From: a virus
Length of the DNA: 64,000 nt
IMG/VR virus record: IMGVR_UViG_3300044638_004201
Coordinates: 9,790-73,789 of that record
Direction: 5' to 3' (one strand)
The notes under the pieces are model-generated. The model was not told where the DNA came from. It did not search any database and was given only the letters and a program-made list of their open reading frames with translations. Shown in pieces: positions 6,195 through 39,000 of the stretch (the first letter of the stretch is position 1; each line of letters opens with the position of its first letter). The position numbers and the translations under genes were made by a program.

Positions 6195-6225
6195 TCAACC
6201 AAAAAGTAAAAAGGGGAGAGACAAA

Positions 6226-6639: not shown

Positions 6640-6682
6640 ATATGATTTACTAAGCAAAGACTAGGAAAGGGGAAAAAGTAAA

Positions 6683-22166: not shown

Positions 22167-22522
22167 GAGTACAAGCAGATGTATTTCCATCAGTAGTTGC
22201 TTTGGCAGAACCGAATTCTTTAGAGGATTTGAGAGAGTTGATGCCCAAAGGTGCTGCCCCGAAAGGAACCAGAAGGCTTGATAGGTGTCGTGTCGTGGTT
22301 TTCAACAATAAGTTGCTTATCGCTGTAGACTCTCCGTCAGGACCTAATCTAGTGTTCCAAGAAAATATTACTTTTTATGAGAAATACGAAAAGGTACATC
22401 GAGTGATTACCGAAACAGGAAAACTTATAGCCTTCAAAAAGGATGACAACTGTGGATGCGGCTCACGCTTGCGTTCTTGGAGCCCTTATGGAAGCACTTT
22501 GATGGTTCAGGGGGATAATTGA
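22163..22522 (+). CDS. Hypothetical protein (CGCGSRL motif)
   Basis: ORF track. Confidence 0.65.
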   Translation: MRVQADVFPSVVALAEPNSLEDLRELMPKGAAPKGTRRLDRCRVVVFNNKLLIAVDSPSGPNLVFQENITFYEKYEKVHRVITETGKLIAFKKDDNCGCGSRLRSWSPYGSTLMVQGDN

Positions 22523-22812
22523 TTACAGACTTCTTCCAGTTAGCAATTGCTGGACTAGCGACCTACAGAATATCTAGGTTGATAGTTAGAGACGAGATTT
22601 TTGATAAACCCCGTAACTGGATATGGGAAAAGTTCCCTCCAGAGAGCAATAAGTTCGGGTATTTCTTTACCTGTATGTGGTGTACTAGTGTTTGGGTCGC
22701 ATCATTACTTGTAATATCCCGTATCATTATTCCAGAGGCCACGCAAGTAGTTGAAATAGTCTTAGCGCTTTCTGCTATTGCTGGCTTGTTATCCGCACAC
22801 GAGGATAGGTAG
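22519..22812 (+). CDS. DUF1360-like membrane protein
   Basis: LATYRISRLIVRDEIF..R, CMWCTSVW. Confidence 0.75.
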   Translation: MITDFFQLAIAGLATYRISRLIVRDEIFDKPRNWIWEKFPPESNKFGYFFTCMWCTSVWVASLLVISRIIIPEATQVVEIVLALSAIAGLLSAHEDR

Positions 22813-22848
22813 TCCTGGTGTTCCGTAACGAAGACGAGGAGTAAATCT

Positions 22849-24618
22849 GTGGGCGTATTCAAACGCGAAGAACCATCCAGTGAACCTGTTCGTCCTGCCG
22901 TTCCCAAGAAAGCATCCTCGCCTAAAAAGGGTAAATCAAAATCTACTACTCGCTCTACACAATTAGTTGCTCGTCGTAGTTCTTCTAAAGTTTCTGGACC
23001 TGCCTCAGTATTTTTATCATCACCTGCATCTTCTGTTGCATATTCAACTCCACGTTCTTTAACTGCTGCCGCAGTTCAAATCAAAATTAATGATAAAGGC
23101 GAGTTTGAACAATTTAGACAACGTCGCGCCGCTGGTTCATCAGCATGGCAAGCAGAAGCATGGGAATACTACGACGCAATCGGTGAAGTGAAGTATGCCT
23201 TCAACCTTGTTGCATCAGTTGTTTCACGAATTAGAATTTATGCAGCGGTTGTAGAGAACGCATCTGAGTCCCCAACATCTGTACGCAATGCACGAATTAT
23301 TGATCCACGTCTTGCTGCTGCCGCAGAAAGAGCACTTGCTCGTTTAGATTCTGCATACGGCGGACAAGCAGGACTTCTTAAGGATGCAGCACTTAATCTT
23401 TCAGTTGCTGGTGAATGTTATTTAGTTCAGATGCCAGAGAAAAAGGGATCAGGCGTTCCTGAATCTTGGGACATTCGTTCCGTTGATGAAATTATGGCAG
23501 ATGCTCGTGGTGGATACAACGTTATTGGTCGCCGTGAACAAACAGCAGGTGGATCTATAGGAGTTAATCGTCTTGCTAATGGTGCATTCGTAGGACGCAT
23601 TTGGCGTTCACATCCACGTTACTCAGATGAAGCAGATTCATCACTACGCGGTCTTCTAGACCTTTGCGCAGAACTTCTTTTGCTCAACAGAACATTCCGT
23701 GCAACAGCACGCTCTCGCCTAAACGCTGGCGCTCTTTACTTACCAGATGGTTTATCAGTTGCTGCACAAGGCGACCCTGACTATCCATATGATGAGGCAG
23801 ACAGTGAATTAAATCCTGGCTTTACAGCAGAAGAAGCAGAAGATGAGTTTGAAGAACAACTTATTGATGCAATGACAACTCCGATTCGTGATGAAGAATC
23901 CGCATCAGCAGTTGTTCCGCTTATCATTCGTGGCCCTGCCGAACTTGGCGATGCCATTAAACAATTTAAGTTTGAGCGTTCGTTCGACCCTGCGTTGGCT
24001 CAACGTGCAGACCGTGTTCTTGAACGTATCCTTCAAGGTTTAGATGTTCCAAAGGATGTAGTCACTGGTCTTGCCAATGTGAAATATTCGAACGCTCTAC
24101 AAATTGACGAAGCACTCTACAAGGCACACATTGAACCATTGATGTTGCTCATTGCAGATGCTTTGACTATCGTCTATCTACGCCCATACCTCACTGCTCA
24201 AGGTTTCAACGCAACTGAGGTTGACAGAATTGTTGTTTGGTATGACCCAAGCGCAGTTTCAACTCGCAATGACAGAGCAATGGATGCTGACTCTGGATTT
24301 GACAGAGGAATTATCTCTGGAGAGACATGGCGTCGTGCTCACGGCTTCTCTGCATCTGATACACCTACAGCAGAAGAAGTTGGAATCAGAATGCTCTTTG
24401 AAAAGGGAGCAATCACACCTGAACTTACTGAAGCAATGCTTGGTGCACTAAGTCCTGAACTTATGATGAAGGTAAGAGAGGCTCAACAAGGCGCATCTGT
24501 TGCTCCGCTACCTGAAAGTGTTGAACAACTTCTACAACAAGCAACTTCTGGAGCACCTGCGGAAGGCGGTGAACCAAATGTCGAAGACAATCAGCCAGAC
24601 ACCAGCACCGAAGTCTGA
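22849..24618 (+). CDS. Portal protein (cluster-B-like)
   Basis: WQAEAWEYYDAIGE, NLSVAGECY, RIWRSHPR..EADS, ASAVVP; first large gene of head module. Confidence 0.85.
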   Translation: MGVFKREEPSSEPVRPAVPKKASSPKKGKSKSTTRSTQLVARRSSSKVSGPASVFLSSPASSVAYSTPRSLTAAAVQIKINDKGEFEQFRQRRAAGSSAWQAEAWEYYDAIGEVKYAFNLVASVVSRIRIYAAVVENASESPTSVRNARIIDPRLAAAAERALARLDSAYGGQAGLLKDAALNLSVAGECYLVQMPEKKGSGVPESWDIRSVDEIMADARGGYNVIGRREQTAGGSIGVNRLANGAFVGRIWRSHPRYSDEADSSLRGLLDLCAELLLLNRTFRATARSRLNAGALYLPDGLSVAAQGDPDYPYDEADSELNPGFTAEEAEDEFEEQLIDAMTTPIRDEESASAVVPLIIRGPAELGDAIKQFKFERSFDPALAQRADRVLERILQGLDVPKDVVTGLANVKYSNALQIDEALYKAHIEPLMLLIADALTIVYLRPYLTAQGFNATEVDRIVVWYDPSAVSTRNDRAMDADSGFDRGIISGETWRRAHGFSASDTPTAEEVGIRMLFEKGAITPELTEAMLGALSPELMMKVREAQQGASVAPLPESVEQLLQQATSGAPAEGGEPNVEDNQPDTSTEV

Positions 24619-25531
24619 TCAGATTAAAGGTTCATCAAAAAACAAAAAAGATTCTGCTAAAGGAACTAAAGAAGCACGCAAAGTAAAATTTTCAGCATCA
24701 GTTGAAGCATCTTTGAAAGAAAAAGTTTCTAAGCATAATGAAAAAGCACCATCTGGACGTAAAGCATCGCTAGGAATGCTCAAAGCGGTCTATCGCCGTG
24801 GCGCAGGAGCATTTAGTGTCTCGCATCGTCCTGGAATGAATCGCAATCAATGGGCTATGGGTCGCGTCAATGCTTTTCTAAAACTTCTCAAGTCTGGAAA
24901 GCCTACTAACTCTGCTTACACCACTGACAATGACCTTTTACCTTCTGGACATCCTCGTTCTACTAAAAAATTTAATTCAATTACAGCAGCAGGTCTTGTT
25001 CCAGAAGAACAAGAGTTAGCAGCAGCACTTGTTGAGATTGCTACCAAGTATGGAAAGTTTAATGAAGATGAAACTGGCATATGGGCTGGCTACACATCTG
25101 CGGCAGATAACAAAGACCAAGAAATCGGCGTTCATTGCGCCAACTGCGTTCTTTATGCTGGCGGAGACCAATGCCAAATCATTTCCCTACCTGTAGAGCC
25201 AATGGGAGTATGTCGTTTTGCTGTTCTTCCTGATGGCGTAATCAAAAAAGAAGGAAAAACATCTATGAAAGATGTTGAAGAGTTTGCATACGAGCAAGAA
25301 CTTAATATTGAACTAAAAAATAAAGAAGATTACCTATATCCAGAAGACGCTATCCTTGCTATGGCAGAGTATTCAGGTTATGGATATGAAGCAGAAGAAG
25401 CAATTAGAGCAAGTTGGCTTCGCGGCGTAAGAAATGGCGATGACCCTTTTCTTCGTGCTTCGCTTTTAGCATCTTTGGGTCATGCAAGTCTTGATGGAGA
25501 TTTATTACCAGAGTTTGAGGAAGGTATATAA
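24578..25531 (+). CDS. Head-associated protein: DUF5824-like leader + HiPIP-like Cys domain
   Basis: LKAVYRRGAGAF..SHRPG...WAMGRVNAF; CANC...C...C; start moved to ATG 24578. Confidence 0.6.
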   Translation: MSKTISQTPAPKSDQIKGSSKNKKDSAKGTKEARKVKFSASVEASLKEKVSKHNEKAPSGRKASLGMLKAVYRRGAGAFSVSHRPGMNRNQWAMGRVNAFLKLLKSGKPTNSAYTTDNDLLPSGHPRSTKKFNSITAAGLVPEEQELAAALVEIATKYGKFNEDETGIWAGYTSAADNKDQEIGVHCANCVLYAGGDQCQIISLPVEPMGVCRFAVLPDGVIKKEGKTSMKDVEEFAYEQELNIELKNKEDYLYPEDAILAMAEYSGYGYEAEEAIRASWLRGVRNGDDPFLRASLLASLGHASLDGDLLPEFEEGI

Positions 25532-25533
25532 GA

Positions 25534-28500
25534 GTGAGCAGAATTCGCAGACTAAGTCACGCAATTTCAGAAGAGGGACGTCGCTCTCAATCAATGAGCC
25601 AGGCTCTTCGTATTCGTGAGTCAGCACTTTCTGTAATTGAACAGGCGAACACAAATGCTAATACTTCTCGCCGTATCACAAAGAAGGCAGCATTTACTGT
25701 AGTTCTTCGCTCACTTCAAGCAACACGTCATCTTCCATTCTCACTACGTGAGCATATGGCTTTGAAGGAACTTACTCAGTACATCAACCTTGCTCAAAAC
25801 AATAAGAACAACTCTTTAACTCTTTCACACACAGATTTACTTCCAATCTCACACCCACGCTCAACTCGTGACCACTCTCTTACAGCATCTGCTTTAGAAT
25901 CTTCTCGTGCTCGTTGGTTTGTTGATGACGCACGAATTACAGATGAACGTGCACGAGTAATTCTTGCATCAGCACTTACTTCAGAGTTTGGCTCTGTAGA
26001 ACACACTTACTACAACTCAATTCTTGCTGGTCTACCACAAGGAACTTTGCCAACCGAGACATTGCTTGCTGCTATGGGCGATGGAAATTCTCCAATTGCT
26101 CGTTCTCTTCGTGCAAAACTACAACGTCGTGACCGCAAAGGTCGATTCGCATACCAAGGCGGAGGTCTTCGTGCTCTAGTTCGTCGTGCTGGAAAAGTAT
26201 TTAGCGTTGTTGGTAAAACTCTTATGGACTCCAATGATGGAGAAAATGTTCTTGTAGAACTTCCAGATGGTCGAATTGCTAAAATTCCACCTTCAAAGGG
26301 CGAGTTCGTAAAAGCAATCCTTAATCCAACTGCTGACGGATTTAGCAAAGCACCAGTTCGTTATTCAGTTAGCGATGATGTAATAAACGAAGAAGATATT
26401 GAATTTGTTGAAGCACCAGACGGCTGGGAAAAATTAGGTGGCTACACTTGGAAGAATGAAGAGTGGAGAGTTACTAAGGATGATTTTGGTAATCTAACTG
26501 CAAGCAATGGCAAAGGCCCAATTATCGATGCCAAATCTTGGTCAGAGATTTTAGATAAGATTGATGAAATTGATAAGCCTTCTCAGGAAACAGAATTTCC
26601 AGAAGCAAAAGAACAACAAAAACAAAAACAAGAAATTATAAAACCTAAAGAAAAAGCAGCGGCTTTTGCTTTTGCTATTCCTGAAGGCGCAAAAATAATT
26701 AACCCAGATTCATCATATGACCCTGAAGGTCGTATTGATGAAGAGTCAACAGATTTTACTGATGACCCTGTAGAACTTGCACAAAAGTATGACCCTCGTG
26801 ATTTAGTTGCTGCTTTAGAAGAAGCAGTTATTCCAAAAGAAGATGGCGAAAACGCAACTGGCTATGGAGCACTTGGTTTCAATAACGGAGACGAGTTTGT
26901 TCCAGCAGAAGCATTGTTTTTTGCTCTTCAAGAGGCTGGCGAAGATGCTCCTCTAGAACTTGCAAGAATCTACGACAAAAAACTTGGAACTAAACAAAAC
27001 GAAGAAGCACTTGCTGACTTCCGTAAGGGCTCAGAGAATGTTAGTGGACCTAATCCAGATATTGCTGAAGCGTTTGAAAGAACTATTGAGCGCGACGCAG
27101 ATGAGGCACCAGCAGCAGAGATTCCAGATTTCAATAAAGAAGAGATGGACCTAGTTCCACTTCCAGTTGTATTAGATGGTCTTGGCGAAGCCGAGATGGC
27201 TGAATTTATGAAAACTAAAGACCACACTCCTTATCTTCCAAAAAATGATGATATTGATATGCCAGCGGGATATCACAAAATCAATCCTGAGCCATACCAA
27301 AACTGGAAAGAAGTTACTGAAGAAGACCAGAATGAAAATCTTCCAGTTGGATTTAGCGACAACCCTGTTTTCTTGGCGCAGTCTGTTGAAAAAGAAAAAC
27401 TTGTTGAAGAACTAAAGCGTGGTATTGAGCCAGGTAATCCAATTCCAGGACACGCAAACGTGTCTATGAAAGATGATGATGGCGAAGAGTTTGTAGCAAA
27501 CGTTCCTGTAGAAGCAGTGCGTGATGCTTTACAACTTCTTGGAGAAGATACAAACGCACTTGTTAAGTCAATTGCTGATGAAGGATTTGTTGGACAAGAA
27601 GAGCAACAAGCAGAACTTCCTCTAGACCTTCCAACTGAAGCAAAGCCAATGAATGCTTACGAGCGTTTGATGGCAGAGCAAGCAGCAGAAAGAAAGGCTG
27701 TCGAAGACCGCATAGCAGAACTAAAAGCCAATGCTGAAGCCCGTGTTGATGACCAAGGACGTAATGTTCCTGAGGGTTGGGGAATCTCACAAACAGTAGG
27801 AAGAATGTTTGGCCGTGCTCTTCCAGAAAACTATAACAACGTTTATGGTTTGAATAACTTTGAAGCATCTACTGATAAAGATGGAAAGATAACTGTAAAA
27901 GACCGCAATGGTCTTGTTGAACCAAAGACTTATGAAAACTGGGATGAAGTACAGGCAGACCTAGATGCTCGCAAGGCAGAGTATGCAAAAGCATCTCGTG
28001 AAAAAATTAAAGAGTTTGCTAAAGGCTATGGTTTTTCTGACGAACAGATTGCCGCTTTTGATTCAATGACTCAAGCGGAGATTGCAGATTTCTTCGCTAA
28101 CCCAGATAACCATACAGAAGCCTACAAGAGCGCTTTAGATGATTTTGAAACATCATGGGCAGTTGATATGCCTCGTCCTGCTCAAAGAGAACGCTGGGCA
28201 GCCTTTGGAAAAGAAAAGCGTATTTCAGAACAGGCTGGAGATTTCCCAGATGGAAATGCACCAGTTGCAGAACTTCCAGTTGCAGCAGAGCGCAAGCCAG
28301 GCACTGCTACAGAAGGTGAAAAAGGTTTAGACATTGTTTCTGTTCCAGAAAACAAAAACATTAGACCAGCAGCCCCAGATGATTTTGAGGTTGATGGATT
28401 ACAAGAGATTCCAGACGGATTTGAAGAATATCCAGCGGCAGCAAACGTTGCACCTGCTCCAGCCCCAGGGGACGGTGGAGATGGACCAACACCTCCAGGT

Positions 28501-31500
28501 GGAAATGGAAATAGACCACCAATTCGTATTACTGTAAAAGCAAAAGACATTTTGCCTGGTGATATTACTGTTGGCGACCATTTTGTAATTACAGAAGTTG
28601 GCGAGAAAGTTCCAGGAACAGATCGCATAAAGATTAAGGGTTACTACCCAGGCCATGTCGAACAAGATACAAAGCAGTGGAATGAATGGCGTGAGATTCC
28701 AGTAATTCGTGGCGCACAGGCTCCTGAAATGGGAGACCTACCAGTTCTTTCTAAGCCAAAAGAAAAAGATTTTGGTCGCAGAAAGAAAAACGCAGATGGC
28801 TCTTGGGGATTTGCTAAGGCAGAAGACCAAGCAGCCTTTGATGCTGCTCGTGCTGACTACGACATACAACTAGACGCAGCAAAGAAGCGTTTTGTTGACC
28901 CAACAGAACCAGCAAACCAGCCACATCGTGTTATCTCTCGTGCTGCTGATTTGAAGGCTGGAGATGTAACTACAGACCCTAAGAAGGGTCACTTTGTAAT
29001 TGAAAGAATTTTTGTTGACGAAAACACAAAGCCAGAGTTTGTCAGTGTTGAGGGTTACTACCCAGGACACGTCACTCAAAGAAAAGAGTGGAAGGCAAAC
29101 GGCCCTATCGATGTTATTCGTAACGTTGAACCACCTGCAAAGGGTGATTTAGAAGAGTTACACCAACCTCACAACGTTGTTGATGGTAAATGGCGTCCAG
29201 ATAAGGACCCTGCCAAGCGTGCAGAGCATCAGAAGAAACTTGATGAGGCCGCAGCCTTGTGGCAAGCACCAGCAGACCTTCCAGTTATTAACCAGAAGGA
29301 TAATGTTGCAGAGCAAGATAAAGATATTCCTAATGCTGTCGCTGTGCGACGCCCTACACCTCCACGTCAGATTGAAATGCCAGCCTTCCAAGGTGATATG
29401 GCTGCAATTGCTCGTGAAGCAGGTGGAGACTGGAATAAGTTCCGTGAACTTCTTAAGGATAAAGATTTAGTCTTCTTTGATTTTGAAACAACTGGAGTAG
29501 ATCCAGAAGATGGCAACGAGCCATGGCAAGTTGCTGGTGTTCGTGTTCGCAACGGTGAAATTATTGACCGCGTAAATATTTTTATGAACCCAGGTCGCTC
29601 TATTGCTGATACATATGCTGGTCGTGATACAGATGGAATCCCTAACGCTGTAGATGACAAGGGCAACAAACTCAATGATGATTTCTTAGGTCAGCAACCA
29701 AACCAAGAAGATGCAATGCGTCAGTTCTTGGAGTGGGCAGGACCAAATGCAATCTTCGGCGCACAAAATATGGTTTTTGATGATGAAGTTGCTCGTCGTC
29801 TTGCTGACCGTCATGGTCTTGACTGGGCTCCAGGAGGTCTATTAGACATTCTGCCAATGGCACGAGACATCTTCAAAGACCAACCTAAGGAAAACCGTCC
29901 TCAGGCTCCTAAGGGCCGTAAAAATCATTACGCTTTAGGAAACCTTGCTAAACATCTTGGCGTTGACTTAGAAAATTGGCACGCAGCAGATGCTGATGCA
30001 GAAGCAGCAGCAAAGATTTTCAATGCTCTTATTGACAAGGGAATTGAACTTGATGCTGGTAAAGATTTGTTTGATGTCGATGCTCGCAACGATGAGTATG
30101 TGGCAAAGATGGATGGATATAACGCAGCCTTCGATGCTTACGAAGGACAACTTGCTGAATACGCTGCTGCTAAGGCAATGCGAGATGGTCTCAATGGCAA
30201 GCCCGTAAACACTGATGGTGCTGTAAAAGATGCTGTTGGTACTCCAAACCCTGGCGAAAATATTGATGCTGGTCCTGTCGGCCTTGAGCCAGAACCAGTT
30301 CGTGCTCGTGATGAAGTTGTAGTTCTTGATTTCACACCTAACACGATGTTCCCTCAAGGAAAGATGAGAATGATGGACCGCGACTGGGTGCTTAACCCAG
30401 ACAACGCCGTTCTTCTACCTCGTGAAAATATTCGTATGCGTGATTTACTTCCTGGAGACTTTATGTCTTCTAAGGATGGAAACATTATCTGGCAAGTAGT
30501 TGCTCTTCGTGGTGGAGAAGAGTTTGGTCTTGAGCCAGGAAAAGTTAGAGTTTATCGACGTAATATTGAAAACGGAGAAGTTTCTACATACGAACATTTC
30601 CATACAGTGTTCTTAGACGGAGTTCGTCGTCCTAAGAATCCAGAAGATTTGAATGTTCCAGAAGTTATGCCAGAAGGTGAAGCAGCACCGTTTATTGCTA
30701 ACGACCCTGTTGATTTAGATAAGAATGCAGAAGAGGTAGGAGCAGAGAGAATTTGGCTTGATGCTTTTGGTCTTCCAGGCATTGGCATTGGCACAATTAT
30801 TATTGATAAGACACCTGGAGGAAGATTTGCACTTCGTGCACTTATCCACAATAGCGATGATGGAAATGAAATCTACAGAGTAGAAGAAGAGTACAGAACT
30901 GCTGAAGGTGCTAAAGCAGAGGGTGAAGCACTTATCAAACTTCATGCAAAAGATTTGCTTGACCAAAAGCGTAAGGAACAAGCAGAGCCAGAAGAGGCAC
31001 GAGCAAAAGATGTTCCTATTGCTCGCGGAGACATTCCAGGCGATGCCAACAATGCCCCACAAATTATTGAAGTACAAGACCTACCAGACAATCTTGCTGG
31101 AGACATCAAGATTCAAAACGTTGGCGACGAGAAGCCAGACTTCCAAGCAGACGCTGTTGTTCGTGACCTTGACGGAGATTTGTTAGCAAATCAGACTACA
31201 AATCATCCTGACAAAGATAAGGCAGAGAAAGAAGGCCGCGAGTTTATTGCTCGTGTAGTTGACGCTCTTCAAAATCCAGAACAACCAGTAGAAGATAAAG
31301 ATGCGCCAAAGAACATTAATGGAAGACCTGTTGGCACTAAAGCCCGCGTTAAATTTATACCGAGTGCTCCTGGAGTTCCTCCACGAGAAGAAGTTTATAT
31401 TCTTCAAGAAGATGGAAAGTGGAAGAACGAAGAAACAGGTGCAGTAAGAGATGAACTTCCTAAAGCCTGGTCTGCTGAAAAAGATGGTTTTGGACGCGGA

Positions 31501-34500
31501 GGATATAACGAACCTGTATTTGAAGAGCCAAAGAAGAAGAAAAAGAGAGAGCCAAAACCTCTATCTGAAGATGCAAAAGCAAAAATTGAAGAAGAAAAGG
31601 CAAAAGAAAAAGATAACGCTTGGGTTGAGGAAAACGCTGGTCGTTTAGCACCTATTGAAGCCCAAGAAGTTCAAGTTGGCGATTTCTTCTGGTCTCCATT
31701 CTGGGGTAACTTCGAGGAAGTTCTTGCAGCACGCTACATCGGTGTCCTTGATAGGTATGAATTCATGATTCAAAACCGTGTCAATGGAAGAATTGAACCT
31801 CGCTACTTCAAGGCTGACTCACCGCTTCGTAACATTCGTCGTCCTGGTGTTGAAGATCAAGAGTTTGAAATTATTGATGAGCCAAAGGGAACAAAAGCAG
31901 TTCCTGGAGCAAAGCGTGGACAAATTAAGCGTAAGCCTCTTGGAGAAAGAATTGTTGCTAAAGAGGGTCGCCCAATGGGTGGAAGATATAAAGAAGAAGG
32001 ATTCTACGAAGATAGAAATGGCATTGCCCTACAAGAGGGAGATGTTGTTCGCTTCAAGGACCCAGTAAAAAATGCTAAGTGGGGCCGTGGTGTTGTAAAG
32101 GCTCGTATGGGCGCACAAGTTGAAGAAGGTCAAAAGGCTGGTGGTCAAGGCCGTAAAGGAGTTATTTACCTAGACAAACTTATCATTCAATTTGAAGGTG
32201 AAGATGAAAAATGGGCATTCCGTCAAGGTGGCCGTGAACTGAAGGGTAGAAATCTTATTCTTCAAAAGGGAGATAACACTGACATTGTTCTTCCTGATTT
32301 CCGTGGACCAAAAGCAAAGCCAGTAGATCGTGGACTTGGCATTGAAGGTCCTGGCGGACGTGTTGTAAAAGAGCCTAAGGTAGAGCCAGCATTACCTAAA
32401 GCAGAAGACGACCAAAAGGCTAAAAAACTTAGAGCAAAAGAATTAGGACGTCAAGCATTTGCTAGAGGTGGTAGAGGAAATCAACTACCAGCAAACGACA
32501 AAGAGTTTATGGAAATGTGGGAGTTTGGACCTGCTGGACCTAATAAGGCTGAACTCTGGAACGAATGGCTTGCAGGGTTCCAAGAAGCAAAAGATGGGGC
32601 ACCTGTTGATGTAGAGCCACAAGAACCAGTACGGGCTCAGGGGCAAAGGATTCGTGCTTTAGTTGACCGAAACCTAGGTAGAGACAAAGAAGAAGATTTG
32701 AAAGAGCAAATTGAGCAAGCAATTGCTGATGGAGATGCTATTGCTTTTATGTACAACGGAAAAGCAAGAAACTTTACTCCTAAGCGCGTCTGGGTAAATC
32801 CACAAAATGGAAATGTAAATGTTGGTGGCTTTGAAGGTGGCCAAATGAAAAACTTTACAATTCAAAAAATGGACTTTATGCCAACTGATGAAAATGGAAT
32901 TGTAGAAGGTATTCCAGTAGAGGCTCCAGCCGCAGATAAGCCTGATGCTGATGCTGCTGATGCCAAATTAGAAAAATTCAAGGCTGACTTCGGGAACAAG
33001 TTTGACGACCTTGAGAATAGGGAAAATGTTGTCGCTGGGCTTCAGCAAATTGCTGATGCTCTTCCAAAAGCAAGAAACTACAAAGCCGCGTTAAACTTAA
33101 GAAACGCTCGTCAAGCACTAGATGATATTAATTCTAAATTTGCTGGAGGCGCTGGTGTAGACGAAATAAGCGAATACAATTTAGATGCAGCAATTCGCCG
33201 TTTGAGAAGAGAATCTAATGATGCTTTTGCTCAAGATGCAGCGGATAAACTTGAAAAAATATCTAAAGAGATAAAAGCAAAACGTCAAGAACTTGTCAAC
33301 AAGAGACTTGCTGCACCGCTTCCTGAACTCCCTGAGCCTAAGGGCGTAGACAAAGATGGAATGAAGAATGTTATCAATGAGATTATTCAAAGACTTCCAG
33401 AGTATGGAGACTATAACGCACGGAAGTCTGCTAATAGAGATGCTGGCATACAGAGAGATGCACTAAGAAAATATCTTAAGTCTATAGATCAAGATATGCT
33501 TGATTTGGATGACATCATTCATTCAGACTTAGAAGAAATCGCTAATGCTTTAAGAAGAGTCGCTAGTGTAGAAGCAAAGGACGGCAATCAGCCTAATGCT
33601 GATAAGTATGAAAACTTTGCTGACATATTAGATGGCTACCGCACAGAGTTAGAAAGTCGCGGTGGCGGTCCAGTAGTAAAGCAACCATTAAATAATCTAG
33701 ACCCTGAAGAAGTAGCAAAGCAAAGAATTGCTGATAAGGCAAACGAGTTTGCTCCTGTAGAAAAACTTCAAGCATTTATGGCTGATGATTTGAATGTTGA
33801 TAACGACAGACTTCTTCAACCATTCAAAGATGAATTACAAGAGTTTTTTGCCAACGGCGACCCTAAGCCACTAGCAATGTTAACTCCCGCTGCTCGTCAA
33901 GCACTTGGTTTTTTTGTTGGTAAGGCGCTGAAAGATTCTAATAATCCAGTTGATCCAGACAAGAGCGAAGAGGTAGTTAATAATCTTGGTGATTTGGCTG
34001 TACAACTTCACGCTGAAAGACTTGCTTTTACTCCTAACGCTCCTGATTTAGGGGTTGGCGATGCTCTTCTTGATATGGACTTTTCAAAGATAAAAGAACT
34101 AGGAGACTTCCTATACAGGAACAGAGTTGAAAGAGATGTAAAACTAAAAATAAACGGTCAAGACACTGGATTCAATATAAAAGTAGCAATCGATGAAGAT
34201 AAAGGTGTAAACACAACTTATTTCATAACTCATAGAGCGTCTGGTCGTAAGTTTGTTATGAAGTTAGACACTATGGTTGGAGAGCGTGGTGCTGACGCAG
34301 AAATTGCATCAGCGGCCCTTAATCGTGCTTTAGGAAACATTGGCGCTTATCAAGTATTCCGTCATAGGAGTAGAAGAGATGTAGTTGTCACATCCTGGGC
34401 TGGAGAAATGGTTGACTTTGAGTCAGAGCCAAAGCGTATCGGAGACACCAAGTACCTAAGACAACATGAACAAGCCGCGATGAACGGTGCTTTTGTAGAT

Positions 34501-34944
34501 GTTATTGGACTTGCTATTATGGATGCAATTCTTATCAATGGTGATAGACATAGAAATAATCTCCTTGTAGGAAAAGTAAAAAATCTTGATGGTGTAAATG
34601 CAAATGACGACACCGAAGCAGTTCAATTTATGGCTGTTGATCACGGACTAGCGGGACTTATCGTCAAAGGCGGAATGATGTCTCCAGACGATTACATCCA
34701 AGGCGCTGACAGTGACGATAGTCATAGAAGAGCAATAAATATTGCTTCTCAACTTGTCGACAAAATTGGCGTTGATTTGTACAAACGAATTAATGATATG
34801 ACCATACAGCAAGCAGTTCAAGCACTAGAACGAGAGCGCGGAAAAGACATTACTGACGCTGATTTAGATGCAATAATTAAAAGACTAGAACTTCTTCGTG
34901 GAATTGATAATTCCAAGTGGAAGCGCATATTGAGGAAAAGATAG
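25534..34944 (+). CDS. Giant (3136 aa) polyvalent head-module protein: DEDDh exonuclease, WYL-like domain, C-terminal PI3/4K/HipA-like kinase
   Basis: FDFETTG/QNMVFD/HAADAD (29461-30030); AIADGDAIAFMYNG..R.FTP (32698-32880); FVMK, AEIA, DRHRNN, VDHGL (34200-34944). Confidence 0.8.
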   Translation: MSRIRRLSHAISEEGRRSQSMSQALRIRESALSVIEQANTNANTSRRITKKAAFTVVLRSLQATRHLPFSLREHMALKELTQYINLAQNNKNNSLTLSHTDLLPISHPRSTRDHSLTASALESSRARWFVDDARITDERARVILASALTSEFGSVEHTYYNSILAGLPQGTLPTETLLAAMGDGNSPIARSLRAKLQRRDRKGRFAYQGGGLRALVRRAGKVFSVVGKTLMDSNDGENVLVELPDGRIAKIPPSKGEFVKAILNPTADGFSKAPVRYSVSDDVINEEDIEFVEAPDGWEKLGGYTWKNEEWRVTKDDFGNLTASNGKGPIIDAKSWSEILDKIDEIDKPSQETEFPEAKEQQKQKQEIIKPKEKAAAFAFAIPEGAKIINPDSSYDPEGRIDEESTDFTDDPVELAQKYDPRDLVAALEEAVIPKEDGENATGYGALGFNNGDEFVPAEALFFALQEAGEDAPLELARIYDKKLGTKQNEEALADFRKGSENVSGPNPDIAEAFERTIERDADEAPAAEIPDFNKEEMDLVPLPVVLDGLGEAEMAEFMKTKDHTPYLPKNDDIDMPAGYHKINPEPYQNWKEVTEEDQNENLPVGFSDNPVFLAQSVEKEKLVEELKRGIEPGNPIPGHANVSMKDDDGEEFVANVPVEAVRDALQLLGEDTNALVKSIADEGFVGQEEQQAELPLDLPTEAKPMNAYERLMAEQAAERKAVEDRIAELKANAEARVDDQGRNVPEGWGISQTVGRMFGRALPENYNNVYGLNNFEASTDKDGKITVKDRNGLVEPKTYENWDEVQADLDARKAEYAKASREKIKEFAKGYGFSDEQIAAFDSMTQAEIADFFANPDNHTEAYKSALDDFETSWAVDMPRPAQRERWAAFGKEKRISEQAGDFPDGNAPVAELPVAAERKPGTATEGEKGLDIVSVPENKNIRPAAPDDFEVDGLQEIPDGFEEYPAAANVAPAPAPGDGGDGPTPPGGNGNRPPIRITVKAKDILPGDITVGDHFVITEVGEKVPGTDRIKIKGYYPGHVEQDTKQWNEWREIPVIRGAQAPEMGDLPVLSKPKEKDFGRRKKNADGSWGFAKAEDQAAFDAARADYDIQLDAAKKRFVDPTEPANQPHRVISRAADLKAGDVTTDPKKGHFVIERIFVDENTKPEFVSVEGYYPGHVTQRKEWKANGPIDVIRNVEPPAKGDLEELHQPHNVVDGKWRPDKDPAKRAEHQKKLDEAAALWQAPADLPVINQKDNVAEQDKDIPNAVAVRRPTPPRQIEMPAFQGDMAAIAREAGGDWNKFRELLKDKDLVFFDFETTGVDPEDGNEPWQVAGVRVRNGEIIDRVNIFMNPGRSIADTYAGRDTDGIPNAVDDKGNKLNDDFLGQQPNQEDAMRQFLEWAGPNAIFGAQNMVFDDEVARRLADRHGLDWAPGGLLDILPMARDIFKDQPKENRPQAPKGRKNHYALGNLAKHLGVDLENWHAADADAEAAAKIFNALIDKGIELDAGKDLFDVDARNDEYVAKMDGYNAAFDAYEGQLAEYAAAKAMRDGLNGKPVNTDGAVKDAVGTPNPGENIDAGPVGLEPEPVRARDEVVVLDFTPNTMFPQGKMRMMDRDWVLNPDNAVLLPRENIRMRDLLPGDFMSSKDGNIIWQVVALRGGEEFGLEPGKVRVYRRNIENGEVSTYEHFHTVFLDGVRRPKNPEDLNVPEVMPEGEAAPFIANDPVDLDKNAEEVGAERIWLDAFGLPGIGIGTIIIDKTPGGRFALRALIHNSDDGNEIYRVEEEYRTAEGAKAEGEALIKLHAKDLLDQKRKEQAEPEEARAKDVPIARGDIPGDANNAPQIIEVQDLPDNLAGDIKIQNVGDEKPDFQADAVVRDLDGDLLANQTTNHPDKDKAEKEGREFIARVVDALQNPEQPVEDKDAPKNINGRPVGTKARVKFIPSAPGVPPREEVYILQEDGKWKNEETGAVRDELPKAWSAEKDGFGRGGYNEPVFEEPKKKKKREPKPLSEDAKAKIEEEKAKEKDNAWVEENAGRLAPIEAQEVQVGDFFWSPFWGNFEEVLAARYIGVLDRYEFMIQNRVNGRIEPRYFKADSPLRNIRRPGVEDQEFEIIDEPKGTKAVPGAKRGQIKRKPLGERIVAKEGRPMGGRYKEEGFYEDRNGIALQEGDVVRFKDPVKNAKWGRGVVKARMGAQVEEGQKAGGQGRKGVIYLDKLIIQFEGEDEKWAFRQGGRELKGRNLILQKGDNTDIVLPDFRGPKAKPVDRGLGIEGPGGRVVKEPKVEPALPKAEDDQKAKKLRAKELGRQAFARGGRGNQLPANDKEFMEMWEFGPAGPNKAELWNEWLAGFQEAKDGAPVDVEPQEPVRAQGQRIRALVDRNLGRDKEEDLKEQIEQAIADGDAIAFMYNGKARNFTPKRVWVNPQNGNVNVGGFEGGQMKNFTIQKMDFMPTDENGIVEGIPVEAPAADKPDADAADAKLEKFKADFGNKFDDLENRENVVAGLQQIADALPKARNYKAALNLRNARQALDDINSKFAGGAGVDEISEYNLDAAIRRLRRESNDAFAQDAADKLEKISKEIKAKRQELVNKRLAAPLPELPEPKGVDKDGMKNVINEIIQRLPEYGDYNARKSANRDAGIQRDALRKYLKSIDQDMLDLDDIIHSDLEEIANALRRVASVEAKDGNQPNADKYENFADILDGYRTELESRGGGPVVKQPLNNLDPEEVAKQRIADKANEFAPVEKLQAFMADDLNVDNDRLLQPFKDELQEFFANGDPKPLAMLTPAARQALGFFVGKALKDSNNPVDPDKSEEVVNNLGDLAVQLHAERLAFTPNAPDLGVGDALLDMDFSKIKELGDFLYRNRVERDVKLKINGQDTGFNIKVAIDEDKGVNTTYFITHRASGRKFVMKLDTMVGERGADAEIASAALNRALGNIGAYQVFRHRSRRDVVVTSWAGEMVDFESEPKRIGDTKYLRQHEQAAMNGAFVDVIGLAIMDAILINGDRHRNNLLVGKVKNLDGVNANDDTEAVQFMAVDHGLAGLIVKGGMMSPDDYIQGADSDDSHRRAINIASQLVDKIGVDLYKRINDMTIQQAVQALERERGKDITDADLDAIIKRLELLRGIDNSKWKRILRKR

Positions 34945-34953
34945 GATGACACT

Positions 34954-35715
34954 ATGACAATAAAAATATATCGCGGATATCCAGATAACGAAGTTTATAC
35001 TGGCTATAACTATGTGTTGTCTATCGTAGCAGCAGACTCCGATTTTATTTATATCTCAGACCCAGATAGTGGGTTTGATGATGAAAGAAAAGAGATGCTT
35101 ATTGATGTTATGAAGCATAATAAGAGAAGCCTTCCTAAAGATGCTGACGGCTGGGCTGCTCTTGCTATGTATAACATTTCTGGTCTCTCCTATAAAAATG
35201 TAACTGGAGATGAAGAAATTTCAGACGACTCCTATGACGAGGTTGTTATGGATGAAATTGTTTCTTTTGAAGATGCAAGAGAATTTAGAGCAAGTCAAGA
35301 AGAGCCAATGACCGCAGCAGTTGGAGATGCTTGCCCACCTGCTACTCAAGACATCGCTCTAAACCTAAAGAACCGTAAAAATGCTATTGACACTGCTATG
35401 TACGGTCCACTAAATCCAGATGAGCCAAATAATGAATATTGGCAAGCACTGGCAACAGAGTGGAGCGTAGATGTGGAAACTGCAAAGCAACAGCGCTGTG
35501 GTAATTGCGCTGTTTTCGTAGTCACATCATCAATGAAGGATTGCATCTCTCAAGGGCTGACTGGAGAAACTCAGTCCGATGAGTTTGATGCAATAGACGA
35601 GGCTGGAGAACTTGGATACTGCGAAGCATTCGATTTCAAATGTGCGTCTGCTAGAACCTGCCGTGCATGGGTTTCGGGAGGTCCAATTGATGACGAAAAG
35701 GCTAAGGAGCAGTAA
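34954..35715 (+). CDS. Hypothetical protein with C-terminal HiPIP-like Cys-rich domain
   Basis: CPPATQD, RCGNC, GYCEAFDFKCASARTCRAW. Confidence 0.65.
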   Translation: MTIKIYRGYPDNEVYTGYNYVLSIVAADSDFIYISDPDSGFDDERKEMLIDVMKHNKRSLPKDADGWAALAMYNISGLSYKNVTGDEEISDDSYDEVVMDEIVSFEDAREFRASQEEPMTAAVGDACPPATQDIALNLKNRKNAIDTAMYGPLNPDEPNNEYWQALATEWSVDVETAKQQRCGNCAVFVVTSSMKDCISQGLTGETQSDEFDAIDEAGELGYCEAFDFKCASARTCRAWVSGGPIDDEKAKEQ

Positions 35716-36017: not shown

Positions 36018-39000
36018 GTGCAATTTATTGGTCGCAGTGGCAATGAGGTTCTATTCGTTGCCGATAGCAAAGCCGTAATTGTTGACGAACAAACAAAACT
36101 CGTATGCTCTGTAGGTGATGCTGACTCTATGGTCGCATCTTTCATACCTGATGGCGACCAAACAAAACCAGAATCTTCTATCCCTTTTGAACTTGCTGTT
36201 GCTGCTACAACAGACCTTGATATTAAAGTTTTTTCCAACAATGACCGCTTATACACAATTCCTAAATCAGTTCAGGCCGAAGCAAAACGAGCATTGGAAT
36301 GGCGTAAGGAAGAAAAGCGTGGCGGAACTCCAGTCGGTCTAAACACTGCTCGCACTCTTGCTCGTGGTGGACAAATTGGTATTCGTAAAATTCGTCATAT
36401 TGCTAAATATTTTCCACGCCATGAAGTAGATAAAAAAGGCAAAGGCTACAAGCCTGGACAAGAAAACTATCCAAGCAACGGACGTATCGCTTGGGCACTG
36501 TGGGGCGGGGATGCTGCTAAGTCTTGGGCTACAGCAATTGTAAATCGTGAAAATAGAAAAGCCCAATCTAACTCTATTACCGCCTCTTTCGAGTATGTCA
36601 TGTCTGACTACGCTAAGCCAGAGTCAGTTGACCTTAACTCATTTATTGAAGCAGAAGTTATGCCAGAAGAAATGGCACCTCAATTTTATATGCGTGTTCG
36701 TTTAGATGGTTCAGGGATTGACCGTCTTTATAAAGTAAATCCAGATGGCTCTGTCTTTGTTTGGGACGATGCTATGTGGGAAGATTTAGGAAATATAAAT
36801 CACGACTTTGAAACCTACGATAAGTCTCTTGACGATGCTTATGACAATGTATCAAAACTACACTTGCCTATAGATTCCAAAACAGCAGTAATTATTTCTG
36901 GTCTCTTTGAAGCAGACCCTTTCAAAGCAGTTTATGTTTCTCAAATTGAGCCAGAAGAGTCTCAACTATTTGTTGATGAGATGGATGGCGTCGACTGGGA
37001 TTTAGTAGACGAAGTTGAATACGATGAAACTGATTATAGTGAGTATGAAGAATATTCAGAAGTAGATGATTCTCTAACTGCCGCAGGTGAAGCACCATCA
37101 AGTGGCGCACCAACAAATCAAGATGGAAACTACACCCCAGAAGAGCGCTCAGAAAAGGCTCGTGGTCAGGTTCGTGACAAAATGGGCAAGTTTGCTAAGG
37201 CTGGTGGAAAAGTTGTTATTGGTGGAAACCCTGAATACACGGGAACTATCGAGTCAATAAATCCAGAAAGTCAAAGCGTAAAAGTAAAACTTACAAATGG
37301 TAGTTATGTAGATGTACCTGCTAATACAACAGAGTCAGTAGACACTTTCAAACCAATGCCTCAGGTTCAGTCTGCTGTTTCAACTAAGCAGTTAACTAAA
37401 AATATTCTTGGAGAGCCTCGCACTCCTATTGATAGACCAGCAGCAACTCTTACAGCAAAACTTCCACAGTTGCAGGTAAATCAAGTGAAAACAATTCTTA
37501 GTGATTTCTCCCCCTGGGCAGTAGACCTTAGACAAGCAGCACAAACTCCAGCATCTTCTCCAGATGCTCCAACCGAACTTCGTAAAACACCTAATGCCTA
37601 TAACGACCCATCTTTACGTGCATTTTTAGAGAAGACAGTAGTAAAAGATGGAAAGACTTCTAATCCAAATGCAATTTGGTACCGACCAGATATTTCTAAG
37701 ACACCAGTAAAACCTTCCGATGTTGAAGCATATAAACCAGCAAAAGATTTGAAACCATCTCCTGGTCTTACACCAGTGCCTTGGTTAACACAGCCAGCAA
37801 AAGGATTTACTTCTTCTGCTGAAGCAGCAGAGGTAGAACTTACTCCAGACACATCTGATGTTCCTCCTATCTATATGGCAATTGTTTCTCCAGATGACCC
37901 TCAGGCTGTTATGGAATTAGTTTCATTAGTACCTGCTACTAATAAAACAACTACTCCAATGACTTATAAGCGTAAGCCAGGCAAGTGGGAAAAAGATGAG
38001 CAGATTCTCAATGACCTAAACAGTCCTACTCCTCCACCAGTTATTGTTTTAGATAATGACAACCTTGCTTTGGTATTAGACCAAATTGATTCTGTAAAAC
38101 CAGCAACTGCCTCTATCAGCAATATTGATTCAAGAATCATTGCTTTGATGGCAGCAGGTGGTGCTGATAGAAACCGTGGCAACGCTGAAAAACTTCGTCG
38201 CTACTGGTTATATGGAAAAGGCGCAGCAAAGATTCGTTGGAATACTCCAGGAGACTGGACACGCTGTGTTCGTCAACTTTCTAAATATATGGGACCTCGT
38301 TCTAAGGGCTATTGCGCCTTACGCCATAAAGAAGCCACAGGTATGTGGACAGGCGATAAAGAGCATCGTCAACTGTTTGGTAAAAAAGGAAAAGCAAAGA
38401 ATACTTTTAGTAATGATTTTGTCATTCCATCAGAGGCAGTTCTTGCTTCAGTAATTATGAAAGCAAGAATTGCTGACGCTAAGAATCGTGTTTTGACTGC
38501 TGGTGCTTCTATGGAAGAGCCTGGAGTTGGGGCACAGTTTTATATTCCTCTAGTTATCCCTGAAGCCATAGAGTCTGGCGATGGACGTAAATTTGTTCCA
38601 GGGGCTATCTCAATGAGAGAACTACCACTACCTTTCTTATGGCAAATCAAGACTGGCGAAGGCCATTCCGGATCAGTTGTTATAGGAAAAATTACCAAGA
38701 TGGAAAGAGTAGAAAATGGCATAGGAAATGCCTATGGCTATTTTGACACAGGTGAGTACGGAAAAGAAGCGGAAAGACTCGTTCGTGGCGGATTTATCCG
38801 TGGAGTTTCTGCTGACTTAGATATGTTTGAAGCAAATGAAGAAACAAATGCTTCAGAAAAAGAATCCGACGGCAAAGTCGGAGCAGGTAAAATGAAGATA
38901 ACAAAGGCAAGAGTTATGGCTGTAACGCTTGTCCCTAAACCCGCTTATCAAGAGTGCACTATTGAACTCGTTGATGAGAGTGGGAGAGACCAGGAGGAAG

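What the first reader, a model, noticed from the sequence alone, without database searches (positions are those of the whole stretch)
25534..34944. 3136-aa polyvalent protein (exonuclease + WYL + kinase) encoded between portal and protease
Seen: intact DEDDh motifs, a WYL-like module, a C-terminal PI3/4K/HipA-like kinase, and internal duplications. These include two GYYPGHV domains (about 28530 and 28930), two F(T/S)D.PV.LAQ...VP.EA...ALQ..GED domains and four A.D(L/I)..GD SH3-like units. Knowledge: MuF-position polyvalent proteins are thought to be packaged and injected, and WYL domains sense nucleic acids. Inference: an injected anti-defence or host-takeover machine in which nucleic-acid sensing may gate nuclease/kinase activity. 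This combination is unfamiliar to me.
Basis: partly seen in the sequence, partly recalled or inferred. Interest (0 to 1): 0.8.

Follow-up and report, generated by a model that had tools for sequence, protein, structure and literature searches.

The report
Giant cysteine-free phage head-cargo protein
An uncultured lake phage of actinobacteria encodes, between its portal and capsid-protease genes, a real 3136-residue protein. It has no cysteine and joins a family-specific loading head to a DNA/RNA-trimming exonuclease and a HipA/PI4-kinase-like kinase. The kinase is swapped between near-identical phages together with a small partner domain in the next gene. The protein is most likely packed in the capsid and released into the next host, but nothing here shows that directly.

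Summary
ORF 25534-34944 encodes a 3136-aa protein between portal and prohead protease. It has an intact DEDDh exonuclease, a divergent WYL domain, a C-terminal HipA/type-II-PI4K-like kinase and two internal duplications.

It is a polyvalent protein in the sense of Iyer et al. 2017, from an undescribed family. At least 417 clusters (50% identity) share one N-terminal module of about 335 aa, always at the N-terminus.

New points:
- Cargo comes as two independent cassettes, one exonuclease and one kinase.
- The protein has 0 Cys in 3136 aa; 143 of 215 relatives also have none.
- The first ~115 aa of the next gene co-occur with the kinase (23/23 against 0/8 loci).
- That domain is replaced together with the kinase in phages otherwise ~90% identical, as in a weapon-plus-safety pair.

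WYL gating of the enzymes is not supported: across the family WYL occurs independently of the kinase and less often with the exonuclease. Packaging and injection remain inferred.

This scan has reported the same family before on other genomes. Two of those leads, cysteine-free and swappable kinase, were re-tested and confirmed here. Verdict: new variant of a known kind.

The parts
25534..34944 (+). Giant ORF, 3136 aa, no cysteine
25534..26058 (+). N-terminal leader (aa 1-175). aa 35-121 are paralogous to the DUF5824-like part of the upstream 343-aa protein. It holds the invariant DLLPxxHP(R)S motif and the (L/M)TA(S/A) and LLAA motifs, which are putative protease sites.
   Evidence: cleavage is inferred
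24725..24997 (+). Paralogous leader segment in the upstream 343-aa head-module protein (aa 76-166)
   Evidence: hhalign probability 94.5%, E 7.5e-8; DUF5824 hit
26047..26538 (+). Anchor (aa 172-335): GDGNS..RSxRAxLQRRDRKGRFAxxGGG followed by a beta-rich domain. Homologous to the N-terminus of Microbacterium phage Cece gp68, which sits in the same gene slot.
   Evidence: hhalign probability 98.4%, E 8e-15
26677..27027 (+). FTDDPV alpha/beta domain, copy 1 (orphan fold; present in 95% of the family)
27259..27615 (+). FTDDPV-type domain, copy 2 (FSDNPV)
28486..28854 (+). GYYPGHV domain 1: SH3/KOW-like five-stranded barrel, then a hairpin and a helix
   Evidence: VIA Z 6-7 to EF-P/eIF5A domain I
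28900..29256 (+). GYYPGHV domain 2
   Evidence: Z 7.2, rmsd 3.0 over 63 aa
29452..30057 (+). DEDDh (DnaQ/PolC-type) 3'-5' exonuclease with a complete catalytic set
30301..31308 (+). Exonuclease-linked accessory region: S5 (aa 1590-1725) and S6 (aa 1735-1925). Almost always found together with the exonuclease.
   Evidence: no known family
31651..32328 (+). Kinase-linked basic region S7a/S7b (aa 2040-2265)
32683..32877 (+). Divergent WYL domain (aa 2384-2448)
32941..33933 (+). Helical region that precedes and co-occurs with the kinase (aa 2470-2800)
34039..34941 (+). HipA / type II PI4K-like kinase (aa 2836-3136), with K2910, E2923, D3004-R-H-x-x-N3009 and D3036-H-G
34954..35298 (+). Kinase-partner domain: the first ~115 aa of the next gene (253 aa). 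Co-occurs and co-varies with the kinase.
   Evidence: no known family
32392..35268 (+). Exchanged cassette: WYL + helical region + kinase + partner domain. This block is replaced in relatives that are otherwise ~90% identical at the nucleotide level.
22849..24618 (+). Portal gene (context)
36018..40757 (+). Prohead protease polyprotein (context). It carries the same TAA...RDxxGKF element twice.

Best explanation
This is a capsid-loaded polyvalent effector of a roughly 130-kb freshwater actinophage.

Loading. The N-terminal ~335 aa are a family-specific loading module: a leader shared with the neighbouring head protein, then an anchor carrying the RDRKGRF motif. This module takes the protein into the prohead, and the leader is probably removed by the prohead protease.

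Cargo. Two independent cassettes follow on a single chain without cysteine.
1. An exonuclease cassette: two SH3/KOW-like barrels, a DnaQ-type DEDDh 3'-5' exonuclease, and two accessory regions.
2. A kinase cassette: a basic region, a WYL domain, a helical region, and a HipA/PI4KII-like kinase.

Action. The protein is released into the next host with the DNA. There the exonuclease acts on host or defence nucleic acids, and the kinase phosphorylates host proteins, for takeover or to disarm defences.

Safety. In the producing cell the kinase is kept in check or escorted by its cognate ~115-aa partner domain, encoded at the start of the next gene.

Shown here: the domain identities, the architecture census, the absence of cysteine, and the co-occurrence, co-variation and cassette exchange of kinase and partner.

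Inferred: packaging, cleavage, ejection, the substrates, and the partner's inhibitory role.
For: Position and synteny.
- The gene lies in the portal-to-protease-to-capsid head module.
- Synteny is kept in DSL-LC01 (3289-aa gene) and in the cultured Microbacterium phage Cece (gp68).

N-terminal module.
- It is found in 417 clusters, always at the N-terminus, on proteins of up to 7004 aa.
- The cargo behind it varies.
- The leader is paralogous to the adjacent head protein.
- The TAA...RDxxG(K/R)F element is shared with the protease polyprotein in three phages.

Cysteine.
- There are 0 Cys in 3136 aa, against 5.4 per 1000 aa in other ORFs of the window.
- The capsid protein also has 0 in 704 aa.
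- 143 of 215 relatives have no Cys.

Enzymes look active.
- The DEDDh residues are invariant.
- The kinase K/E/DRHxxN/DHG residues are invariant.
- Fold matches: Z 11.6 to HipA and Z 10.8 to PI4KIIalpha.

Cassettes.
- GYYPGHV, S5 and S6 go with the exonuclease. S7b and S10 go with the kinase. Exonuclease and kinase are independent of each other.

Partner domain.
- It is present in 23 of 23 kinase-bearing loci and 0 of 8 kinase-less loci.
- Partner and kinase identities correlate (Mantel rho 0.65, p 0.0005). Partner and N-terminal module do not (rho 0.10).
- Window against L012: ~90% nucleotide identity on both sides, with 32392-35268 replaced.

Precedents from the literature.
- Polyvalent proteins (PMC5512222).
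- T7 kinase disarming bacterial defences (PMC13645617).
Against: - There is no virion proteomics for any member, and no cultured host.
- No MuF, portal-fusion or other known packaging domain is present.
- The putative cleavage motif is only about twofold enriched in head-module proteins (p about 0.03) and is not universal in the family.
- The kinase hit to Pfam stays below the curated cut-off.
- The partner domain resembles no known antitoxin.
- An active 3'-5' exonuclease packed beside the genome would itself need restraint.
- Benler et al. read a HipA-family kinase encoded between portal and capsid genes of gut phages as a late, non-injected superinfection-immunity function (PMC8008677).
Confidence: 0.6

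Rival explanations
1. A late-expressed cytoplasmic multi-enzyme that is not packaged. It is made together with the head genes and works in the producing cell, for instance degrading host nucleic acids and phosphorylating host proteins to block superinfection or defences while progeny assemble.
For: The gene lies in a late operon. Benler et al. proposed this reading for HipA-family kinases encoded between portal and capsid genes (PMC8008677). No packaging domain of a known family was found.
Against: A conserved, always-N-terminal module shared with neighbouring head proteins has no obvious use in a purely cytoplasmic enzyme. The same is true of total cysteine avoidance shared with the capsid protein. 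A tightly co-inherited partner suggests that the kinase must be restrained in the producer.
Confidence: 0.2
2. Mainly a structural or assembly protein of the head interior: a core, inner-body or ejection-conduit protein, as with T7 gp14-16 or the phiKZ inner body. On this reading the enzyme domains are accessory, for example processing the genome ends during packaging or ejection.
For: It is very large. The N-terminal module and FTDDPV domains are near-universal, the latter in 95% of the family. The region between modules is rich in helices and coils. The exonuclease, with its nucleic-acid-binding-type barrels, could act on the phage's own DNA ends.
Against: Half of the family lacks the exonuclease and half lacks the kinase. 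Cargo includes ArdC, ART, NUDIX and UvrD, which are typical conflict domains. Rapid cassette exchange between near-identical phages fits an arms race better than a structural role.
Confidence: 0.12
3. One reading: the WYL domain senses a nucleic acid or nucleotide and allosterically switches the exonuclease and/or the kinase.
For: The module is a real, divergent WYL domain. In this protein it lies inside the exchanged kinase cassette and is the best-conserved stretch of that cassette, at about 70% nucleotide identity.
Against: Family-wide it is independent of the kinase (odds ratio 0.9, p 0.78) and negatively associated with the exonuclease (odds ratio 0.27). It occurs in 1-4 copies at varying positions, often next to FTDDPV or the N-terminal module. 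These counts are not corrected for the relatedness of the proteins.
Confidence: 0.08

Closest known systems
Polyvalent proteins of phages and conjugative elements (Iyer, Burroughs, Anand, de Souza, Aravind 2017; PMC5512222)
   Same: Giant multi-domain protein with shuffled enzymatic cargo, encoded among virion genes. Family members carry the signature ArdC + MPTase-PolyVal, ART, UvrD and NUDIX domains. The predicted role is that of an effector delivered with the DNA.
   Different: No MuF or portal fusion is present. A family-specific N-terminal module stands in its place. A term search of that paper's text found no mention of a DEDDh exonuclease, a WYL domain or a PI3/4K/HipA-type kinase as polyvalent cargo. 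The paper's kinases are truncated Ser/Thr/Tyr kinases of Verrucomicrobia and Bacteroidetes phages. Cysteine avoidance and the kinase-partner cassette were not in the passages I retrieved.
HipA / HipT toxin kinases of HipBA and HipBST toxin-antitoxin systems
   Same: These are the best fold matches: 4pu4 at Z 11.6 and 7ab3 at Z 10.7, with about 230 residues aligned. Three of 12 relatives touch Pfam HipA_C. An adjacent small cognate gene co-inherited with the kinase recalls HipS or HipB.
   Different: The partner lies downstream, not upstream. It shows no detectable similarity to HipB, HipS or the HipA N-terminal subdomain. The kinase is the C-terminal end of a 3136-aa head-module protein. The catalytic loop reads DRHxxN, as in PI3/4-kinases.
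Type II phosphatidylinositol 4-kinases and the PI3K/VPS34 helical-plus-catalytic unit
   Same: Best sequence-profile hits in the PDB: 4wtv and 9hhm at E 1.5e-3. Pfam PF00454 is hit by all 12 relatives. Fold match at Z 10.8. Foldseek aligns the helical region plus kinase to VPS34 and PI3Kgamma at E 2e-5.
   Different: The score is below Pfam's curated cut-off. The TM-score over the helical part is low. A lipid substrate is unlikely in an actinobacterial host, so a protein or small-molecule substrate is more plausible (inference).
Actinomycetia phage DSL-LC01 3289-aa hypothetical protein, and Microbacterium phage Cece gp68
   Same: Both occupy the same gene slot after the portal. The DSL-LC01 protein shares the N-terminal module, the FTDDPV domain, WYL-like modules and a kinase-like region. 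Cece gp68 shares the anchor.
   Different: The cargo is largely unrelated. Cece gp68 lacks the ~170-aa leader. Both are annotated only as hypothetical proteins. The DSL-LC01 paper does not mention the protein in the passages retrieved by searching it for the phage's name.
HipA-family kinase of 'Gratiaviridae' gut phages (Benler et al. 2021; PMC8008677)
   Same: A HipA-like kinase encoded between the portal and capsid genes of uncultured phages.
   Different: It comes from a different phage lineage and host phylum. It is not reported as part of a giant polyvalent protein. Its authors interpret it as a late superinfection-immunity function. No sequence comparison was made here.

Membership tests
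Polyvalent proteins (Iyer et al. 2017) | Large protein with several unrelated effector-type domains in one chain, encoded by a phage or conjugative element | tested here: met
   At least ten modules, including an exonuclease, a WYL domain and a kinase. The phage context is clear.
Polyvalent proteins (Iyer et al. 2017) | Encoded among virion/head genes, or fused to MuF or portal | tested here: met
   The gene lies between the portal and the prohead protease. There is no MuF or portal fusion.
Polyvalent proteins (Iyer et al. 2017) | Signature domains such as MPTase-PolyVal and ArdC-N | tested here: not met
   These are absent from this protein. They are present in relatives that share the same N-terminal module (P0042-P0050, P0100, P0110).
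Polyvalent proteins (Iyer et al. 2017) | Packaged in the virion and delivered with the DNA | not testable with these tools
   Only circumstantial support: the N-terminal module, the absence of cysteine, and synteny.
DEDDh (DnaQ-like, Pfam RNase_T) exonucleases | Profile match above the curated cut-off | tested here: met
   PF00929 at 54.2 bits against a cut-off of 24. phrog_192 at E 1e-26. PolC exonuclease 2p1j at E 3e-7.
DEDDh (DnaQ-like, Pfam RNase_T) exonucleases | Catalytic D-x-E, D and H-x4-D residues | tested here: met
   D1316, E1318, D1416, H1483 and D1488 are invariant in 27 relatives.
WYL domain (PF13280) | Profile match above the curated cut-off | tested here: inconclusive
   This copy gets no hit, and 6 of 10 relatives hit only at E 0.046 or worse. 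A profile of this module finds the segments of P0088 and P0112 (E 1.6e-21 and 1.3e-5). Those segments score 29.5 and 34.9 bits against a cut-off of 21.8.
WYL domain (PF13280) | Small Sm/SH3-like beta-barrel fold | tested here: inconclusive
   The model shows a helix followed by 4-5 strands at pLDDT about 90. Five solved WYL chains match the whole module at E 0.4-0.9. The domain was not folded and searched on its own.
PI3/PI4-kinase / HipA-like atypical kinases | Profile match above the curated cut-off (PF00454) | tested here: not met
   20.9 to 24.7 bits against a cut-off of 27.1 for this protein. All 12 relatives match at E of 1.6e-6 or weaker.
PI3/PI4-kinase / HipA-like atypical kinases | ATP-binding Lys/Glu pair, catalytic loop D-R-H-x-x-N, and metal-binding D-x-G | tested here: met
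   K2910, E2923, D3004, R3005, H3006, N3009, D3036 and G3038 are invariant in 12 relatives.
PI3/PI4-kinase / HipA-like atypical kinases | Kinase fold | tested here: met
   VIA: HipA Z 11.6 (232 aa, 4.4 A), PI4KIIalpha Z 10.8, HipT Z 10.7 and CtkA Z 9.6 over aa 2836-3136. Foldseek: PI3K/VPS34 at E 2e-5.
HipBA / HipBST toxin-antitoxin systems | Adjacent cognate antitoxin homologous to HipB (HTH) or HipS | tested here: inconclusive
   An adjacent partner that co-varies with the kinase exists. It shows no detectable similarity to any Pfam or PDB family. Neutralisation was not tested.
MuF / SPP1 gp7 head-morphogenesis proteins | Phage_Mu_F domain | tested here: not met
   No Pfam or PDB hit for aa 1-350 in 34 relatives or in the whole protein.

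The most novel reading that the evidence does not exclude
The head module carries a virion-delivered effector-plus-immunity pair. A HipA/PI4K-like toxin kinase forms the tip of an injected, cysteine-free giant protein. A phage-encoded cognate antidote domain at the start of the next gene silences it in the producing cell. The pair is exchanged as a cassette between near-identical phages, much as polymorphic toxin tips are exchanged with their immunity genes. The shared N-terminal module would then be a general capsid-loading platform for hundreds of such cargo sets in freshwater actinophages.
Probability: 0.3. Interest if true: 0.8.

Novelty: new variant of a known kind. Interest (0 to 1): 0.6.

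Why it matters
If the protein is packaged, this family would be a large and diverse natural set of enzymes that phages carry into abundant lake actinobacteria. At least 417 clusters at 50% identity share one loading module.

The kinase-partner cassette gives a concrete, testable pair. Is the kinase toxic, and does the partner neutralise it?

The cassette exchange points to an ongoing arms race over the kinase's target.

The absence of cysteine offers a simple sequence signature for proteins that must pass through a phage tail.

The loading module could also be used to address how giant cargo is targeted to procapsids when no MuF domain is present.

Tried and rejected
- Megablast of the gene against 50,697 phage records found no match. 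tblastn found only exonuclease-domain hits and DSL-LC01.
- Profile searches of the N-terminal module, FTDDPV, GYYPGHV, S5, S6, S7 and the partner domain against PDB sequences and Pfam gave nothing convincing. The annexin hit for FTDDPV (E 0.008) covers one helix pair and was not pursued.
- ESM Atlas look-ups of FTDDPV and of the partner domain were uninformative.
- Foldseek of the aa 46-1245 model against the PDB gave no hit at E <= 0.001. The BFVD hits were small uncharacterised phage proteins, and no aligned ranges were given. No fold match was obtained for the N-terminal module or FTDDPV. Neither was folded alone, so this does not show a new fold.
- Complex prediction of the portal (aa 70-589) with the N-terminal module (aa 100-340) returned no verdict, score 0.00. 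This is neither for nor against binding. In hindsight the single job would have been better spent on the kinase with the partner domain.
- The [LIVM]TA[ASG] 'processing motif' is only about twofold enriched in head-module ORFs (p 0.027). It is kept as a hypothesis only.
- Gordonia phage Sixama's 1285-aa ADP-ribosyltransferase, in the same slot, shows no N-terminal homology.
- From memory, S6 looked like YegP/DUF1508-type units and aa 2300-2360 looked Rmf-like. Pfam did not support the first. The second was not tested.
- A first alignment for aa 1590-2789 placed fragments wrongly and was dropped. That region (S5-S8) was therefore never modelled.
Full report
**The observation**

The window is part of a 73.8-kb IMG/VR virus contig that CheckV rates 55% complete, which implies a genome of about 130 kb. 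ORF 25534-34944 (+) opens with GTG, nine bases after a GAGGAAGG site. It encodes 3136 residues.

The gene order is as follows:
- portal, 22849-24618;
- a 343-aa protein with a DUF5824 hit;
- the giant gene;
- a 253-aa gene and a 99-aa gene;
- a 1579-aa protease polyprotein (Peptidase_S78 / head-maturation-protease PHROGs);
- the major capsid protein.

The capsid protein's nearest cultured relatives are all actinophages: Microbacterium, Arthrobacter, Gordonia and Mycobacterium phages. The nearest record is the metagenome-assembled Actinomycetia phage DSL-LC01 from a lake.

**The named domains**

*Exonuclease.* Pfam RNase_T scores 54.2 bits against a cut-off of 24, at aa 1313-1496, and phrog_192 scores E 1e-26. 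The five DEDDh residues are invariant in 27 relatives. The nearest solved sequences are PolC proofreading domains and ExoI.

*Kinase.* PF00454 is hit by all 12 aligned relatives but stays below the curated cut-off. Three relatives also touch HipA_C. A profile finds type II PI4-kinases in the PDB at E 1.5e-3. The Lys/Glu pair, DRHxxN and DHG are invariant. An AlphaFold model of aa 2380-3136 has mean pLDDT 80.5. Its kinase part (aa 2836-3136) aligns to several solved kinases:
- HipA, Z 11.6, 232 residues, 4.4 A;
- PI4KIIalpha, Z 10.8;
- HipT, Z 10.7;
- CtkA, Z 9.6.

Foldseek puts VPS34, PI3Kgamma, mTOR and ATR on top, at E about 2e-5.

*WYL.* The direct evidence for the module at aa 2384-2448 is weak. 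A profile of this module finds the matching segments of relatives P0088 and P0112. Pfam scores those same segments as WYL above its cut-off. In the model the module is a helix followed by four to five strands, at pLDDT about 90.

*Duplications.* Both are real. In a model of aa 46-1245 (mean pLDDT 71), each GYYPGHV domain is a five-stranded barrel. Each matches EF-P/eIF5A domain I at Z 6-7.2 and rmsd 2.3-3.0 A over 60-63 residues. The 'A.D(L/I)..GD' units at aa 1003 and 1137 are the first strands of these same barrels. The third exact match, at aa 2836, lies in the kinase region.

**The family**

A word-indexed search found 110 giant relatives of 1.7-4.4 thousand aa on contigs of up to about 158 kb. 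Their cargo varies: RNase_T, PI3_PI4_kinase, ArdC + MPTase-PolyVal, UvrD helicase, WYL, ADP-ribosyltransferase and NUDIX.

A profile of aa 1-350 was scored against 1.84 billion representative proteins. It found 417 clusters at E <= 0.001. The match is always at the N-terminus, on proteins of up to 7004 aa. No Pfam or PDB family matches this module.

I ran a census of 215 members of at least 1700 aa:

| Module | Share of members |
|---|---|
| FTDDPV domains | 95% |
| exonuclease | 58% |
| GYYPGHV barrels | 55% |
| kinase | 52% |
| WYL-like modules | 37% |

Co-occurrence splits the cargo into two cassettes:
- GYYPGHV, S5 and S6 go with the exonuclease (113 of 118, 73 of 74 and 55 of 55).
- S7b and S10 go with the kinase (83 of 89 and 37 of 37). 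The kinase is always C-terminal.
- Exonuclease and kinase are independent of each other (odds ratio 0.96).
- The WYL-like module is independent of the kinase (odds ratio 0.9) and rarer with the exonuclease (odds ratio 0.27).

These counts are not corrected for the relatedness of the proteins.

**The loading module**

- aa 35-121 are homologous to the DUF5824-like part of the upstream 343-aa protein (BLAST E 9e-6; hhalign probability 94.5%). The shared motif is DLLPxxHPRST...(L/I)TA(A/S).
- A similar PR(S/T)LTAAA stretch is invariant in 28 portals.
- aa 172-333 are homologous to the first 172 residues of Cece gp68 (hhalign probability 98.4%). That is a 1654-aa protein in the same slot of a cultured Microbacterium phage.
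- gp68 starts just before 'LTAAGGNS...RDRFGRW'. It therefore lacks the leader.
- The element 'TAA, then 20-30 residues, then RDxxG(K/R)(F/W)' recurs in the giant protein and twice in the protease polyprotein. This holds in this phage, in Cece and in DSL-LC01.

I read this as a removable leader followed by a docking element. Cleavage is an inference. The short motif is only twofold enriched in head proteins.

**Cysteine**

The giant protein has no cysteine in 3136 residues. Other long ORFs of the window average 5.4 per 1000 aa, which would predict about 17 here. The capsid protein also has none in 704 aa. Of 215 relatives, 143 have none.

The lead came from earlier notes of this scan on other genomes, and it holds here. 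A plausible reason is that a chain which sits in an extracellular particle and must thread through the tail cannot afford disulfides. That reason is an inference.

**The kinase partner**

I tested this here.
- The ORF that starts within 30 nt of the giant gene's stop carries, after four profile iterations, a ~115-aa domain homologous to the first 115 aa of this window's 253-aa gene. It is present in all 23 kinase-bearing loci and in none of the 8 kinase-less loci. These correspond to about 17 distinct kinase-bearing and 4 distinct kinase-less lineages.
- In this phage the domain is fused, through 'PMTAA|VGD', to a Cys-rich C-terminal domain. Elsewhere that C-terminal domain is a separate gene or part of the protease polyprotein.
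- Against relative L012, nucleotide identity is about 90% from 22001 to 32391 and 92% from 35269 onward. Between those points only a 192-nt stretch, in the WYL domain, aligns, at 70%.
- At the protein level, aa 1-1921 are 91% identical. The kinase cassette is 32% identical and the partner domain 30%. The Cys-rich domain is 93% identical, the 99-aa protein 98%, and the protease 95%. L011 shows the same pattern.
- Across 17 loci, partner identity tracks kinase identity (rho 0.65, Mantel p 0.0005). It does not track the N-terminal module (rho 0.10).
- The partner matches no known family.

**Reading**

The protein fits the polyvalent-protein idea (PMC5512222). It differs in three ways: a new loading module replaces MuF, the cargo types differ, and a kinase-partner cassette behaves like a toxin tip with its immunity gene.

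A kinase of this fold family acts on proteins in HipA, HipT and CtkA (established knowledge). A recent paper reports that the T7 kinase disarms defences by broad phosphorylation (PMC13645617, abstract only). A takeover or anti-defence role for the kinase is therefore plausible, but it is inferred. Benler et al. offer the main alternative, a late superinfection-immunity function (PMC8008677).

The searchable literature did not describe this family. The DSL-LC01 paper does not mention the protein in the passages retrieved by searching it for the phage's name. The COBRA paper's actinophage passages likewise contain nothing on giant or polyvalent proteins.

The scan itself has reported the family on several other genomes.

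Noticed in passing
window 34954-35715: The 253-aa gene is a fusion. Its partner domain (aa 1-115) is joined through 'PMTAA|VGD' to a Cys-rich domain with 7 Cys. That C-terminal domain is a separate gene in DSL-LC01, where it is annotated as a high-potential iron-sulfur protein. In L035, L025 and L042 it forms residues ~1511-1661 of the protease polyprotein.
   Followed up: partly
window 22849-23070: The portal has a basic, Ser-rich N-terminal stretch of about 70 aa. It ends in PR(S/T)LTAAAVQ, which is invariant in 28 relatives and resembles the motif that ends the leaders of the next two proteins. N-terminal processing of the portal is possible.
   Followed up: partly
window 36018-40757: The 1579-aa protease polyprotein is itself modular. 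It carries the RDxxGKF element at aa 386 and aa 1420. In DSL-LC01 the equivalent region is split into three genes, all annotated as capsid maturation protease.
   Followed up: partly
window 31313-31537: A segment of about 75 aa (aa ~1927-2001) is absent from L012 and L011 and was found in only 3 of 215 relatives. It looks like a recent small insertion between the two cassettes.
   Followed up: no
window 33349-33519: Weak Pfam hit to Tad5, a Thoeris inhibitor, at aa 2606-2662 in the helical region. E is 0.084, below the curated cut-off, so it is probably chance.
   Followed up: no
window 40931-43045: The major capsid protein is 704 aa long and has no cysteine. It has an N-terminal extension of about 200-300 aa ahead of the region that matches the major-head-protein PHROG family (phrog_777). 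The extension holds VTAA and ITAG motifs.
   Followed up: no
L002 (DSL-LC01) 5736-7136: An extra 466-aa 'cytoplasmic protein' between the portal and the giant gene also carries QRRDRKGRFAEMGGG, the same docking-type element.
   Followed up: no
L082 (Gordonia phage Sixama) 8299-12156: A cultured phage with a related capsid gene has a 1285-aa ADP-ribosyltransferase in the portal-to-protease slot. It shows no homology to this family's N-terminal module.
   Followed up: partly
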